A program made the translations under genes and the position numbers. Positions 390-15,724 of a stretch of 64,000 nucleotides of DNA are shown here, one piece after another. How positions within the stretch are numbered: the stretch's first letter is position 1; every line of letters begins with the position of its first letter. This stretch comes from Gonapodya sp. JEL0774. Taxonomy: Eukaryota. The notes under the pieces were generated by a model. The model was not told the origin of the DNA, ran no database searches, and saw nothing but the letters and a program-made list of their open reading frames with translations. The stretch covers positions 1 to 64,000 of the forward strand of contig JADIIX010000003.1 of assembly GCA_027604505.1 (NCBI GenBank). The letters run 5' to 3'.

Positions 390-3366
390 TGCTCAAGTGT
401 ACGACTCCGCGTGCTGCGCAATATATCTTCAAGATTGATCAGTCGGAGAGTCGGAGTTGAGTCTTGGTGGAAGGGTTTGGTGGGGGGGGCCTTGCATTTC
501 AGTCGTGGGTGGTGGACGTATTGATGCCTGCAGGACCAACCTGTGTGCAGTCCCTGCTTCGCTCCCAGGGTGGTGGTGCTCTGGGAGCGGAAGGATTGGT
601 GCTTACAAGACTTAAACTCGGAACTATCGCCCCGATCACGAAGTGCGACGACACGACGACATGGAGGCGGATGCACTACGAAGGCGGAAAAGGCCAAAAG
701 GTGTTCCCGCTTATCACAATGGCACGAGTCGCCCCCAGAGAACTTCTGTAGAATCCACCCAGTACTCCATTCTAGGAAGGGCAGAGAATGTTAGAAGAAC
801 TTTTCTATACAGTCACATGGTGATCTGGGGTGTCGGAATGTTCGCTTTGAGTGTGATTCAACTCCTGTGGAACGGCAGGAGGGAGGATTGGGTTCGCGGA
901 CTGAATGAAATGGCTGCATCTCGCGATTTTCAGCCAGCCAAGTGGAATCCACTGATTTGGGGTGGTGCCACCACAGAAGACGTTGTCGTCACTTCGCATT
1001 ACGGAGCAATGCTCATGTTCTTAGCCGGGTCCGTGTTCGCTCTCTTTTCGCTCGCGACGGCTGATGCAGTTAAAGCTAATCTATCTACGTGCCTGGCCGG
1101 GGTGAGCTCTCCCAACTTGTTATGATTTGGGTTCACTCTCACAAAATGTTCCATCAAAAACTTGTTGCACGCCACGATGCCCCTCCCGAATTCGTACTCT
1201 TCCCCCCCCCCCCCCTTCTTCACAGGTTGATATATGCTCATTCTTAACTTATGTGGTTATGATTCTCGGAATAAATCCAATAACACGAGGTGGGACATGC
1301 AATAGGATGGACGAAGACGACACATTCATCTAACTTTCCACCGTCCTCTTCGAAATCTCCAATCTCTTTTGTTGTTTGTGTTAGATTCTTTTGCATCCTA
1401 CACCTTTCACCCCATCCGCTATCTGAAACATGCGACTTGCACCCCATCGATAATATTAATGGCACATGATATTACCGGCGCCACTGCTGCACATCCTGGT
1501 ACGCGCCTTTCGCGACCGATCTTTTGGCCGCTGACTTGCAACTATGGTATCCACATATTTGGGTGAGTGCTGCAGCTGAGATGCACCGACACCTGTTTCT
1601 TACACCCTCAAAGATACCTGGTTGTGGCGCTCCCAAAACCGCTCGCCTATTTAGCTCTCTTCGGGTCTTTTCTTTGCTTTTCCGTCGTCATCAATGACTT
1701 TAATTTGTGTTTCGGTAACGCAATTACCTGGAGGGCTCGAAGGGAGCAAGAGTTGCGGTACGGAAGAAGCCAAAAGGGGAGCCCCGCCATCCCAGAGTTC
1801 GAAGCAGCCTCTATTGATGATGATGAGTTTGATGGTATTGTCGACTCATTGTCTCTGTGGCTCGCGTGGATATCATGTGTGGGTGCGTGGTGCTCGTTTC
1901 CCGTTCTCTTTGTCGGTGAGTTTTGTGGCGCGACATGATTGTCCCCTCTTAACGAGCGAACTTCTTCACAATTTTATGTTACCTACAGGGTTGATCACAG
2001 GGACAATCTCCTACGCGACATTCGAGGCTGGATTCTCCATTGCCGATGTGGGTAAAGTCATCAACCTGAAAACGATCTGTTCACCGCTCTTATCAAACAG
2101 GTGGTCGCCAAAGTTTTTCTTACCTTCATCCTTACTAATGCAAACTTCGAACTGACAATCTTAGATCGATACCGACGGGAAGCAGCTCTCTCTCGCCATT
2201 CTAAGCGTCTTGAAAAACTGGTGGAAATGTTGGGCAGGGAGGTCCACACAAAGCTTCCGCTCACATCAATAGGATAGTAAGTCTCAGTACGATTTGAATT
2301 ATGATCACGAACGTAATCTCACTCCCCGTTGTGCGCATTAGTGGCTTTGATAGGCCCATTACCGTTACATCACCTCGTTTCATTCCGTACGTCACTGCAG
2401 TGACAGCAGACATAGCACGGTTTGACGTGTGGGCAACAGATCAGGATGTGAGAATTTGGACACTGTGTACTGAAACTGTTACTCAAGATGTCTCGTCCTG
2501 TGTTTGAAGAGTGGTGCGGTGCTGCGATCAGCTCGACAACTTTGGCTAGAATGTGACGAGCTTTGCAAGAGGTTCCAAGTGACACGAACCGACATTCTGG
2601 GGTTTGTTCCTCGCTTGTGCGCCACGCTTTTATTTTGTGCGTTGATGGCGCTCCACAATACCTGTAGGGAATCCTATGTTGCAGTTTCTGGTTTCCCTGT
2701 CGAATCGTCGACAACACCGACGAACGACTGTCGCCGCGCAGTTGAATTCGCTATCGAGCTTTTGAGCTTAGCTCAACAATTGAGTCAAAGAACGGGTCGC
2801 CCTATCGACCTCCGGATCGGTATCCACCTGGGTAGTGCGGCGGTGGCATATCTAGAAGGTGGAGGAGAATCCACTCCAGGCTCAGAGTATTCGGATCTCA
2901 CGGCATCGCCGTTGGATATGGCCACGGTCACCTATTCTGAACAAGAGAGAGCAGGGGATAGGGCGTCGGTGTCAAAGTGGTTCCTGGGAGGTAATGCTGT
3001 GGAGTTTGCGACAGAGTTAAAGGTGACATCAAAGGTGAGTGTATTGCTCGCACCTTTTTGTGTTTCCTGTCAACATGATTCCTTGCGGGTCAGCCTGGAT
3101 GTATTCACATATCTGATGCAGTTTATCATTCTATTCTGGGAACAAGAGCGTTTGTCGTGGAAGGTCCCGAGTGCGTTTTTGGTAATTCTCTCTGTTGCTT
3201 GGAGTTGACCATCTGACAAGTACTTCGCAGACTCATCGATTTTGACCCTTTGCGCCACAAATATATTTCGGGAAATGTTGCAGCGACATACTGGGTCTTG
3301 GGCCACGCCAGCGATGAGATGCTGATGGAGGAGGAAGGGGATACCGTGCTAGCAGAGGAAGAATAG
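390..3366 (+). CDS. Microbial (type I) rhodopsin fused to a class III guanylyl-cyclase-like domain (RhoGC/CyclOp family), atypical; multi-exon, 5' end uncertain
   Basis: Manual splicing gives introns at 1102-1225, 1290-1384, 1563-1613, 1916-1988, 2048-2100, 2277-2341, 2448-2509, 2602-2667, 3035-3093 and 3171-3230, all GT..AG and frame-preserving. Rhodopsin segments: KANLSTCLAG|VDICSFLTYVVM, HPIRYLKHATCTPSIILM (helix C), LCFSVVINDFNLCFGNAI (helix E), AWCSFPVLFV (helix F) and FEAGFSIAD|VVAKVFLTFIL (helix G, DxxxK). Cyclase segments: VTAVTADIARF, QLWLECDELCKRFQVTRTDILG|ESYVAVSG, LRIGIHLG, KWFLGGNAVEFATEL, PGCIHISDAVY and TYWVLG. Stop TAG at 3364-3366. The part upstream of about 780 is tentative. 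Confidence 0.9.
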
Positions 3367-3649: not shown

Positions 3650-4763
3650 ATGGCAGCATTCCTTGCCCAAAATTTCAAAGCCGATGCCTGTGAATGCGTA
3701 TTCATCCCCTCTTGGCTGGCTGGCACCGCCAACTTACCTGTTTCATGCTAAGACTCTCTCTACAGGCCCACCTACAACTCCAATTTGTACAACCACATTT
3801 TCAATTTCCATCAGCAGAAGTTCCCTCGTGCGGCTATCCAAGCAAATGGCAGCGCGATCGACGGATGGGAGAATGTCGTGGATTTAGGGTGACGCTTCTG
3901 AATCGAACTTTGGGAGTGTGATGCCGGATGATAATCTTAATAATTTGCAGATGCGGAACCGGACAGGCAACCGTTCCCCTCTCTAGAGAATTTCGAAATG
4001 CATTAGGAGTGGATCCCTCCACCAAGATGCTCGAATCGGCAAAAATCGCACCGAATATAACCTACAAGTTGGGCAGTGAACATGACATTCCGGTGCCAGA
4101 GGGAAGCGTGGATTTGGTTGCAGCCGCACAGTGCGCTCACTGGTTTGACACTGAAGCGTTCATCTCTGAAGTTCGTCGTGTTCTGCGACCCCACGGCACG
4201 ATTGCACTTTGGGGATACTCGCTTGTCCACGTTCGGGACAAACCACTTCTCACTCAGCTTTTGCGAGAAACCGCTTATGGTACTGGTGAAGGTCAAGTTG
4301 GGCCGTAGTACGTGCACCCCGTGATTGAGCGTGCTGTGTTGAGTTGCCTCATCATTGACTCCCTTGTTTTTTGACATTACAGCTGGGAAGATGGGAGGAA
4401 GATTTTAGAGAACAAGTATGAGAGCATCAAGCTGCCGTTCAAGGAACAGAAAAGGTGATCCAATTCTTTGAGGTTGTCTTCATTATGCGTCTGTTTCCTA
4501 ACCTTTGTTCGGAAAGGATCTACTTTCCTTCACCCACAGAGGGTACAATGATTGATCTAGATATGCCGCTCCCGGCATTCAGGCACTATGTCGGTACATG
4601 GTCTTCTTATAAACACTGGAAGGAGGACCCCAAGAACAATGGAAAGAGTGATCCTTTGGACGCCATGGTTGCAAAGATTGCCGAGGAACTGGGTGGTTCG
4701 GGAGATGAAACGGTGGTACAGTTAGAATGGCAAGGGGTTCTCATATTGGCGACAGTTGATTAA
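3650..4763 (+). CDS. SAM-dependent methyltransferase (Methyltransf_11, Crg1/Tmt1-like), multi-exon
   Basis: Spliced MAAFLAQNFKADAYSLYRPTY...VVDLG|CGTGQAT (SAM motif I), GVDPSTKML, VDLVAAAQCAHWFD, VRRVLRPHGTIALWGY and TWSSYKHW. Confidence 0.9.
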
Positions 4764-14493: not shown

Positions 14494-15372
14494 TCAAGTA
14501 TGTTTCACTTTCAAGTCGTCCTGTGATTTATGTTTCTGGTTCTCCGCAGTAGTCGCTTCAGCCTCCTCCTTTGGTACTCCACCCTGCACCTCTCGTTCAC
14601 GCTCATTCTCGGCTCCCGCATCCACACCGTCACGGTCAACAACATCATCCCCATCCAAGTCAGAACCACCCAAACCCCCGGGATTAATGAGAGCGCCAGC
14701 AGCGGCCGCAGCTTGCATCGCTGCCGCAGCGGCGGCTGCAGCGGATGCCGCGTCGTGGTCTCCAACATCACCAGATCCATTGTGTGTCCCGTGAAGTTGT
14801 TGGAAGACAACGAATGAGTGCGCGGCGGGATGCTCAGAGGGATCCATGACGATAGATTGTTGGTAGAGTGGTTGAGCAGTTGCTGCCATGCCGAGCAGTG
14901 CGACACCACCATGGTGGTGGAGACCACCTGACGCTGCAAGGCGCACAGAAGTGTCTCCATGGCGTTTGAGAATGTTTGAAACGGTTTGTTGGGTGATTGT
15001 GACGCCATGGCGCTCCTGAACCATTCGGACAGCGTCAATTTGGCGACGAGACGGCTCTTCCACCAGCCACTGAAAAATCTCGTCCTCAAGCTCAAGAGAG
15101 CACTTTGGCGGCTTCCCTGCCTTCCGAAGAATGGGTGCGCTGTTGTCAGGTGGGTCGGGCATGGCCAACCATCGATACATTGTCCTTAGGGAAACCTGGT
15201 ACGCCTTAGCAATATCTTTTGCGGAGAGTGTAGTGTTCTCTTTTAAGTATTTGCAGACCTGGATGAGCTGGCGACGATCCAGCTCAGGCAAACCGGACGA
15301 GGGGGGAGCATGGACAGTGACCGTATGTGGGTTTGGCGCGATATTGAGTTGATGCTCGTTCTCAGCGTCCAT
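14494..15372 (-). CDS. Helix-turn-helix DNA-binding protein derived from the Tc1/IS630 transposase N-terminus, with no DDE domain
   Basis: LSAKDIAKAYQVSLRTMYRWL (HTH1), the GKPPK AT-hook-like linker, and EEPSRRQIDAVRMVQERHGVTITQQTVSNILKRHG (HTH2), followed by His, poly-Ala and acidic low-complexity sequence. Confidence 0.75.
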   Translation of the reverse strand: MDAENEHQLNIAPNPHTVTVHAPPSSGLPELDRRQLIQVCKYLKENTTLSAKDIAKAYQVSLRTMYRWLAMPDPPDNSAPILRKAGKPPKCSLELEDEIFQWLVEEPSRRQIDAVRMVQERHGVTITQQTVSNILKRHGDTSVRLAASGGLHHHGGVALLGMAATAQPLYQQSIVMDPSEHPAAHSFVVFQQLHGTHNGSGDVGDHDAASAAAAAAAAMQAAAAAGALINPGGLGGSDLDGDDVVDRDGVDAGAENEREREVQGGVPKEEAEATTAENQKHKSQDDLKVKHT

Positions 15373-15724
15373 CACGTTGAGATGATTGGAACAGTGGACG
15401 GAGCCTTGAAGAAGTGCCGAGGGGCTTAACGCGCTGATTTGGGAGTGAGTGCGGTTTCCGTGAGGTTTGGCGCTTTTTCTACTCCACAGCTGCTGCGCAA
15501 AGAGTTCCGCTGTCGGACTTGGTGATCGGTACAATCGTCTGCAATAAGAAAGTCAAGAGTGAAGTCGCGCAGATGAGAAGACAAGGCCCGGGTGCTCACA
15601 ATTAGCGATGGCAATCGTTTTGTCACGAGGTTTTGTGTGGCAGCAACAGCATAGAGGTTCGGCTAAACACTAATAAGCATTCAAACTTTTTCAATTTCAT
15701 CAACCGCCAACTAAGAGGTCACAC

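What the first reader, a model, noticed from the sequence alone, without database searches (positions are those of the whole stretch)
2342..3310. Cyclase domain keeps only one half of the catalytic set, suggesting an obligate heterodimer or pseudo-cyclase
Seen: the first metal Asp is retained (TADIARF), the second is Glu (RTDILGE for KVETIGD) and the Arg of LRIGIH is retained. However, WCLVGDTVNTASRME has become WFLGGNAVEFATELK (base-specifying Cys to Phe, transition-state Asn and Arg both to Glu), and the KGKG motif before TYW is gone. Established: class III active sites form between two subunits. In mammalian AC C1/C2 and sGC alpha/beta, one subunit supplies the metal acids and the other supplies the base-recognition residues and Asn/Arg. 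Chytrid RGC1/2 work only as heterodimers with NeoR. Inference: a homodimer would be inactive, so the protein either completes a single site with a partner RhoGC or modulates it. This could be an independently evolved two-colour heterodimer.
Basis: partly seen in the sequence, partly recalled or inferred. Interest (0 to 1): 0.85.

Follow-up and report, generated by a model that had tools for sequence, protein, structure and literature searches.

The report
Conserved dead rhodopsin-cyclase paralog in Gonapodya
An intact fungal gene, whose enzyme part is conserved in a second species, encodes a rhodopsin-cyclase protein that has lost most residues needed to make cGMP and two key retinal-pocket residues, so it is predicted to be inactive alone and likely dampens the fungus's working light receptors.

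Summary
The motifs lie in an intact 11-exon, 665-aa rhodopsin-guanylyl cyclase (RGC) gene, 661-3366. A database record of part of it is named Gonapodya sp. JEL0774. A G. prolifera ortholog (57% identical in the cyclase) carries the same odd residues, so this is a pseudo-enzyme under selection, not decay. An active homodimer is very unlikely.

Three corrections. (1) The half-site mechanism is already published: NeoR gives the metal aspartates, lacks NxxxR, and forms one active site (PMC12264004). (2) The retained half is itself damaged: the second Asp is Glu and the P-loop Thr is Asp. That Thr is kept in 101 of 106 metal-donor-type domains; an acid stands there in 75 of 91 domains lacking the Asp pair. 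(3) Two-colour sensing is unsupported: the counterion Glu is Lys and the pocket Trp is His.

Best reading (0.45): a non-catalytic subunit that dampens canonical RGCs. A convergent NeoR-like metal donor gets 0.2. G. prolifera has a second degenerate paralog. I found neither in print. Independent origin from NeoR is favoured but not statistically shown. Partner residues, expression and dimer models could not be checked.

The parts
661..3366 (+). Whole gene model: degenerate rhodopsin-guanylyl cyclase, 665 aa, 11 exons (661-1101, 1226-1289, 1385-1562, 1614-1915, 1989-2047, 2101-2276, 2342-2447, 2510-2601, 2668-3034, 3094-3170, 3231-3366). The start codon at 661 is unverified.
   Evidence: open frame, all introns GT-AG, 51-124 nt. 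NCBI model P0001 agrees across introns 3-9. Last exon supported by ortholog P0002. No reads available.
799..2139 (+). Rhodopsin domain with an extra N-terminal helix (8 predicted membrane helices), model residues about 47-361
   Evidence: Alignment to RGCs; hydropathy; PF01036 E=0.0017, below Pfam's cut-off, on the last helices; 31 of 65 canonical-conserved columns kept
1417..1446 (+). Counterion helix RYLKHATCTP: Lys183 (1426-1428, AAA) at the counterion Glu/D85 position, His184 (1429-1431, CAT) at the W86 position
   Evidence: Glu to Lys could be one base; Trp to His needs three. Not covered by the ortholog fragment.
2042..2112 (+). Last rhodopsin helix motif ADVVAK across intron 2048-2100: Asp348 (D212 position) and the retinal-binding Lys352 are kept
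2140..2259 (+). Coiled-coil linker with a non-canonical cyclase transducer element (register ambiguous)
   Evidence: 3 of 17 canonical-conserved linker columns kept; linker listing; helix predicted, then pLDDT below 50
2385..3303 (+). Class III cyclase-fold domain, predicted catalytically dead
2409..2426 (+). First metal Asp430 kept; P-loop reads DIARFD, with Arg433 and Asp435 for canonical Asn and Thr
2585..2671 (+). RTDILGE hairpin (for KVETIGD): base-binding Glu to Asp470, second metal Asp to Glu474; split by intron 2602-2667; 7 of 7 residues identical in the ortholog
2813..2815 (+). Arg522 (R545 position, gamma-phosphate) kept
2855..2974 (+). Stretch holding an in-frame acidic, Ser/Thr-rich insertion of about 33-38 aa in the beta4-beta5 dimerisation arm; also present in the ortholog
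   Evidence: pLDDT below 50
2978..3022 (+). WFLGGNAVEFATELK: Phe578 for the base-specifying Cys, Glu585 and Glu589 for Asn and Arg, Lys591 for Glu; the ortholog has Phe, Asp, Glu, Lys
3244..3303 (+). beta7-beta8 loop with 7 extra residues and no KGKG lysine, then TYWVLG

Best explanation
This is an intact rhodopsin-guanylyl cyclase paralog, conserved in its cyclase part in a second Gonapodya species, that lacks the NxxxR, base-binding and KGKG residues; it is predicted to be catalytically dead and likely works as a non-catalytic subunit that pairs with the fungus's canonical RGCs and dampens their cGMP output. Shown by sequence: the open frame, the residue losses, the class III fold and the ortholog. 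From established class III chemistry: each site forms between two subunits, so a homodimer has no NxxxR at either site. Inferred: in a dimer with a canonical RGC, the site using this protein's base side is blocked (Phe578, Glu585, Glu589, no Lys). The site using its metal side is likely crippled (Glu474, Asp435). Each such dimer would take an active subunit out of play, acting as a gain or dark-noise control. Inferred: with Lys at the counterion position it likely binds no retinal, or binds it deprotonated (UV), so it is not a second visible colour channel.
For: Intact frame. Ortholog 98 of 172 identical in the cyclase, with RTDILGE, Phe, Glu589, Lys591 and the insertion shared. Fold kept. Among 243 fetched class III domains with the three columns filled, the P-loop position is acidic in 2 of 152 domains with both metal Asp and in 75 of 91 without; it is Thr in 101 of 106 metal-donor-type domains. 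Glu at the second metal site occurs in 9 of 256 domains, this protein included; 5 of the other 8 have lost the first Asp. 44 of 119 conserved cyclase columns kept versus 79-103 in three NeoR-type proteins. T462, F461 and N460 bind the beta-gamma phosphates, and D501 binds metal and ribose (PMC5967339). CcNeoR4, with lost metal and guanine residues and no canonical transducer element, was inactive in every pairing tested and bound no retinal (PMC10622942). Two canonical RGCs per Gonapodya species are listed.
Against: There is no direct evidence of binding to any partner. No second cyclase gene lies in the window, whereas NeoR/RGC(a) genes cluster head to head (PMC10622942); only 660 bases upstream are visible. 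The linker and dimerisation arm are so changed (3 of 17 columns kept; insertion) that pairing with a canonical RGC is not assured. Asp430, an acid at 474 and Arg522 are kept, and Glu474 and Arg522 are shared with the ortholog, which fits a working or nucleotide-binding metal side. The P-loop counts come from related, query-selected sequences and are not independent events. The ortholog fragment does not cover Asp430, Asp435 or the rhodopsin.
Confidence: 0.45

Rival explanations
1. It works without a canonical RGC: a homodimer, or a dimer with the second degenerate Gonapodya paralog, serving as a scaffold, nucleotide or metal binder, or non-light sensor that makes no cyclic nucleotide.
For: Its linker departs from the fixed Lys-to-Pro spacing of the canonical RGCs and NeoRs listed, as does that of P0003. 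The two group together (92/95, long-branch warning) and share 10 otherwise unique columns against at most 6 for any other row, 4 of the 10 in a tail that others mostly lack. No BeCNG1 channel was found in G. prolifera (PMC9616733). P0003 keeps the KG lysine that this protein lacks.
Against: No ligand or partner is known. P0003 was seen only in G. prolifera; a JEL0774 copy did not appear among the best 150 representatives but could sit in its cluster.
Confidence: 0.25
2. It is a convergent NeoR-like subunit: it gives Asp430, Glu474 and Arg522 to one active site completed by a canonical RGC, while its own base pocket is shut.
For: The losses fall most heavily on the base side, while Asp430, an acid at 474 and Arg522 remain. 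NeoR shows this division of labour, and spoiling the non-catalytic site raised activity about twofold (NeoR base residues) to ninefold (partner's Asp) (PMC12264004). One fetched domain has Asp/Glu with intact NxxxR (P0131). Glu serves at the like position in GGEEF diguanylate cyclases (recalled; one search was a search listing only).
Against: Asp at the P-loop Thr: acidic in 1 of 106 metal-donor-type domains. Far greater divergence than NeoR. Non-canonical transducer element. Gonapodya's canonical RGCs are classed as homodimeric RGC(b) by phylogeny, so would need no donor (PMC10622942).
Confidence: 0.2
3. It is a decaying or unexpressed duplicate with no function.
For: NCBI's model lacks the first 194 residues and the last exon, and the ortholog model is only 202 aa.
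Against: No stop or frameshift over 11 exons. The same non-canonical residues stand in a second species at 57% identity.
Confidence: 0.05
4. It is an active homodimeric cyclase using an unusual residue set.
For: The fold and two acids are kept. Some mycobacterial class III enzymes work without canonical Asn (recalled).
Against: Both transition-state positions are Glu, the base pocket holds Phe and the phosphate Lys is gone. The NeoR cyclase domain, with milder changes, is inactive alone (PMC12264004).
Confidence: 0.03

Closest known systems
Neorhodopsin (NeoR) subunit of chytrid heterodimeric RGCs (PMC7655827, PMC12264004)
   Same: Rhodopsin-linker-class III cyclase architecture; lacks NxxxR; inactive alone (predicted here, shown for NeoR); keeps metal-side acids and the gamma-phosphate Arg.
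   Different: NeoR keeps both Asp, the P-loop Thr in two of three rows, the base-binding Glu/Cys, a canonical linker and a carboxylate-rich retinal pocket. This protein has Glu474, Asp435, Asp470/Phe578, an arm insertion and Lys/His in the pocket. It matches canonical RGCs at 6 and NeoR at 0 of 17 diagnostic columns and lies outside Chytridiales.
CcNeoR4 of Chytriomyces confervae (PMC10622942)
   Same: A degenerate RGC with altered counterion, no canonical transducer element and lost cyclase residues; function unresolved.
   Different: CcNeoR4 belongs to the NeoR clade and has Ala at the counterion. This one has Lys, keeps Asp430, and is conserved across two Gonapodya species.
Homodimeric RGC(b): BeRGC/CyclOp, CaRGC, Gonapodya RGC1/2
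   Same: Best structural and PDB cyclase matches; AKVFLT last helix with Asp and Lys; likely ancestral family.
   Different: Loss of E497, C566, N573, R577, K612, D501 and T462 equivalents, and of the counterion Glu and pocket Trp.
Metal-donor halves of heterodimeric class III cyclases (tmAC C1, sGC alpha)
   Same: One subunit lacks NxxxR and cannot work alone (PMC12264004).
   Different: Metal-donor-type domains fetched here keep Asp/Asp and nearly always the P-loop Thr (101 of 106); this protein does not.

Membership tests
Fungal rhodopsin-guanylyl cyclase family (by descent) | Microbial rhodopsin with extra N-terminal helix, linker and class III cyclase in one chain | tested here: met
Fungal rhodopsin-guanylyl cyclase family (by descent) | Closest rhodopsin-plus-cyclase relatives are RGCs | tested here: met
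   Representative search, names, PDB
Homodimeric RGC(b), active enzyme | Full catalytic set D457, D501, E497, C566, N573, R577, R545, K612 | tested here: not met
   2 of 8 kept exactly (D457, R545); D501 and E497 are changed to the other acid
Homodimeric RGC(b), active enzyme | Retinal Lys with counterion Glu and Asp | tested here: not met
   Lys352 and Asp348 kept; the counterion is Lys183 and the pocket Trp is His184
Homodimeric RGC(b), active enzyme | Light-driven cGMP as a homodimer | not testable with these tools
   Needs expression and assay
NeoR | Carboxylate counterions at the E136 and E262 positions (usually also D140) | tested here: not met
   Lys, Asp and Cys at these positions
NeoR | Both metal Asp kept, NxxxR absent | tested here: not met
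   NxxxR is absent, but the second Asp is Glu and the P-loop Thr is Asp
NeoR | Member of the NeoR clade | tested here: inconclusive
   Outside NeoR (100/99) in the free tree; AU p=0.36 and 0.16 do not reject grouping; 0 of 17 diagnostic columns match NeoR
NeoR | Gene clustered head to head with an RGC(a) | tested here: inconclusive
   No other cyclase in the window, but only 660 bases upstream are held. The listed canonical JEL0774 RGCs have distant accession numbers (KAJ3338019/20 versus KAJ3343850).
NeoR | Obligate, active heterodimer with another RGC | not testable with these tools
   No assay possible; the complex predictor was not available

The most novel reading that the evidence does not exclude
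Gonapodya evolved a single-site RGC heterodimer independently of the Chytridiales NeoR system. A blind or UV-sensing subunit donates an Asp/Glu metal pair and has sealed its own base pocket (Phe, two Glu). It would be a natural form of the de-repressed, higher-gain heterodimer made by mutation in R. globosum, and with a second degenerate paralog it would give combinatorial control of the zoospore light receptor.
Probability: 0.15. Interest if true: 0.72.

Novelty: new variant of a known kind. Interest (0 to 1): 0.42.

Why it matters
Published surveys give Monoblepharidomycota only homodimeric RGCs and trace heterodimers to one duplication in Chytridiales (PMC10622942). A conserved pseudo-RGC lineage in Gonapodya, with at least two paralogs, suggests that non-catalytic RGC subunits arose more than once. 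It offers a simple test of what such subunits do, which is open for CcNeoR4. A natural inhibitor or gain-setting subunit, or a rhodopsin with Lys at the counterion, would interest optogenetics and rhodopsin biophysics. The half-site principle itself is not new. The gene is also mis-annotated as a cyclase-methyltransferase fusion, which probably hid it.

Tried and rejected
No whole genome was held, so partner genes could not be read directly. No RNA holder was listed; this is no evidence on expression. Word-index protein searches found only the window's own NCBI model. The third search, aimed at Gonapodya's canonical RGCs, fell on the wrong length range (1058-3020 aa) and gave one unrelated cyclase. 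In the Broser supplement the Gonapodya RGC cells are cut at 400 letters, before the cyclase, and Galindo's alignment is a picture, so the partner's catalytic residues stay unchecked. A metagenome scan found no relative: 201 pattern matches, none confirmed. The complex predictor was not available, so there is no dimer model. ESM Atlas returned generic guanylate-cyclase clusters, mostly viral, not informative. AU tests did not reject a NeoR grouping. Rejected: the NCBI cyclase-methyltransferase fusion, because the ortholog ends with my last exon and the methyltransferase has its own upstream exons. Rejected: my first last-intron choice (donor 3182), which broke the frame; donor 3171 restores it. 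Rejected: the arm insertion as an unspliced intron, because it is in frame, in NCBI's model and in the ortholog. Literature searches for D85K, pseudo-cyclase terms and the five accessions found nothing relevant. Earlier-findings look-ups by sequence and by genome were empty.

Full report
Gene and organism. The finding covers the cyclase exons of a longer gene. Joining 11 GT-AG exons from 661 to 3366 gives one open frame of 665 aa; an earlier donor choice for the last intron broke the frame. A search with the largest cyclase exon returned one protein, 100% identical and named Gonapodya sp. JEL0774 HDU93_005133, KAJ3343850.1. That model matches mine across introns 3-9, lacks the first 194 residues and runs on into a methyltransferase. 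The fusion is an annotation error. The G. prolifera ortholog P0002 (KXS18228.1) ends with my last exon, and the methyltransferase has its own start and SAM-motif exons at 3650-3889. The start codon at 661 is unverified. No genome and no reads were available.

Observation. The domain scores as PF00211, its best PDB cyclase matches are fungal RGC domains, and a model of P0001 keeps the fold with TM-scores of 0.75-0.82 to those domains. I used CaRGC residue roles from PMC7384201 (part 2 of 5 read), PMC5967339 and PMC8575461 (passages). On the base side, E497 is Asp, C566 Phe, N573 Glu, R577 Glu, and K612 is absent. On the metal side, D457 and R545 are kept, D501 is Glu, T462 Asp and N460 Arg. A homodimer therefore has no transition-state pair at either site.

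Selection. A search of 1.84 billion representatives found the ortholog at E=1e-42. It is identical at 98 of 172 cyclase positions, reads RTDILGE at 7 of 7, and shares Phe578, an acid at 585, Glu589, Lys591, the arm insertion and the missing lysine. This argues for a maintained pseudo-enzyme. The ortholog record is a 202-aa fragment and does not cover Asp430, Asp435, the linker or the rhodopsin.

Is the retained half usable? The P-loop Thr position is Thr/Ser in 139 and acidic in 2 of the 152 domains with both metal Asp. It is acidic in 75 of the 91 without them. Among 106 metal-donor-type domains (both Asp, no NxxxR) it is Thr in 101 and acidic in 1. Glu at the second metal site occurs in 9 of 256; of the 8 besides this protein, 5 have lost the first Asp, 1 has a gap and 2 keep it. 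These sequences are related and were picked by likeness to the query, so the counts show a pattern, not a probability. The pattern places this protein with domains whose phosphate site is dead. It keeps 44 of 119 columns conserved in canonical RGC cyclases, versus 96 of 118, 103 of 119 and 79 of 109 in three NeoR-type rows, and 3 of 17 linker columns. Against this, Asp430, an acid at 474 and Arg522 remain, the last two shared with the ortholog, so metal donation is not excluded.

Rhodopsin. The retinal Lys and the Asp before it are kept, but the counterion Glu is Lys and the pocket Trp is His. I use bacteriorhodopsin numbers D85, W86 and D212 as in PMC7655827 and PMC10622942; K216 is recalled. 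In PMC10622942 (parts 1-4 of 6 read), Gln at this counterion gave about 410 nm absorption and Ala went with no retinal binding. Loss of the Trp did not stop retinal binding in GpNeoRh. A blind or UV state is thus inferred, and 'two-colour' is unsupported. The Lys codon is one base from Glu and could not be checked against reads.

Partners and origin. The Broser dataset lists two RGCs for each Gonapodya species and not this gene (term searches and parts 1 and 8 of 10 of the spreadsheet). Cells are cut at 400 letters, so their catalytic residues were not seen. Galindo et al. (PMC9616733; passages, supplement parts 1 and 3 of 7) report a complete cyclase domain in KXS22530.1 and no BeCNG1 channel, and do not name KXS18228 or KXS20541. 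Avelar et al. (PMC4046227, one passage) mention only an unfused Gonapodya cyclase. No second cyclase lies in the window. G. prolifera has another degenerate paralog, P0003 (KXS20541.1). It lacks the first Asp, the base residues and NxxxR, so it does not complement this protein. In a 21-row tree the gene joins its ortholog (100/100) and then P0003 (92/95, with a long-branch warning), outside NeoR (100/99). AU tests did not reject grouping with NeoR: p=0.36 for the whole protein and p=0.16 for the rhodopsin alone, with 8 of 21 rows left out (P0002, P0003, P0008, P0011, P0017, P0025, P0053, P0111). At 17 diagnostic columns it matches canonical RGCs 6 times and NeoR never. Independent origin is favoured, not proven. 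Gonapodya's own canonical RGCs were not in the tree.

What is known. PMC12264004 (passages and sections 13-14) shows that NeoR/RGC1 has one active site, with NeoR giving the metal Asp and lacking NxxxR. Spoiling the other site raised activity up to ninefold. The earlier review (PMC8815786, section 10 and passages) notes that RGC1/2 keep all catalytic residues. CcNeoR4 is a described dead RGC. So both the half-site and the pseudo-RGC kinds are in print. I found no mention of these Gonapodya paralogs in searches by accession, by Gonapodya + rhodopsin + cyclase (5 papers listed), or by RGC terms. The library lacks most subscription papers. A bioRxiv survey of fungal modular rhodopsins has no Gonapodya in its main text (passages); its supplements are closed and could bear on this.

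Verdict. A real, conserved pseudo-RGC and a new variant of a known kind. An inactive homodimer is very likely (about 0.95). Its role is inferred: a damping subunit of canonical RGCs (0.45), a role without them (0.25), or a convergent NeoR-like metal donor (0.2). No dimer model could be obtained. Interest 0.42.

Noticed in passing
window 3650-4763 (+): SAM-dependent methyltransferase gene, like trans-aconitate 3-methyltransferase (PDB 3G5T, E=4e-22), with its own start and SAM-motif exons at 3650-3889. NCBI's model fuses its 3' part to the cyclase.
   Followed up: partly
P0003 (KXS20541.1, G. prolifera): Second degenerate RGC paralog: lost the first metal Asp, base Glu/Cys and NxxxR; kept the second Asp, Arg545 and the KG lysine; retinal Lys and Asp kept; record is N-terminally partial.
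   Followed up: partly
P0008 (KAI8916299.1, Gorgonomyces haynaldii; GhRGC1 in PMC10622942): Classed there as homodimeric RGC(b), yet it reads Glu and Asn at the metal sites and Thr/Lys for NxxxR: a probable pseudo-cyclase in the three-gene cluster.
   Followed up: no
P0011, P0014, P0017, P0025: Further RGC-like proteins with degenerate cyclase or retinal-pocket residues (one Siphonaria sp., three unnamed), suggesting pseudo-RGCs recur.
   Followed up: partly
P0009 (label Clim_evm8s57): Full rhodopsin-cyclase with both metal Asp and Thr/Lys for NxxxR, the NeoR-type half-site, but a conventional retinal pocket. The label suggests Corallochytrium, a non-fungal holozoan (recalled, not checked).
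   Followed up: no
P0072 (unnamed): NeoR-clade protein that keeps NxxxR and KGKG but has Asp at the P-loop Thr: the reverse asymmetry to typical NeoR.
   Followed up: no
P0053, P0156 (Boothiomyces): The RGC-carnitine acetyltransferase fusion reported as a modular rhodopsin (bioRxiv 2025.06.26.661701) might be a gene-model fusion like the one here; a guess only.
   Followed up: no
window 10033-63040: Of 29 long ORFs scanned, 8 had Pfam hits: CH domain, helix-turn-helix (14497-15552), FAD oxidoreductase, M16 peptidase, EF-Tu-type GTPase, HAD hydrolase, PI4-kinase (two ORFs). None is tied to light signalling.
   Followed up: partly
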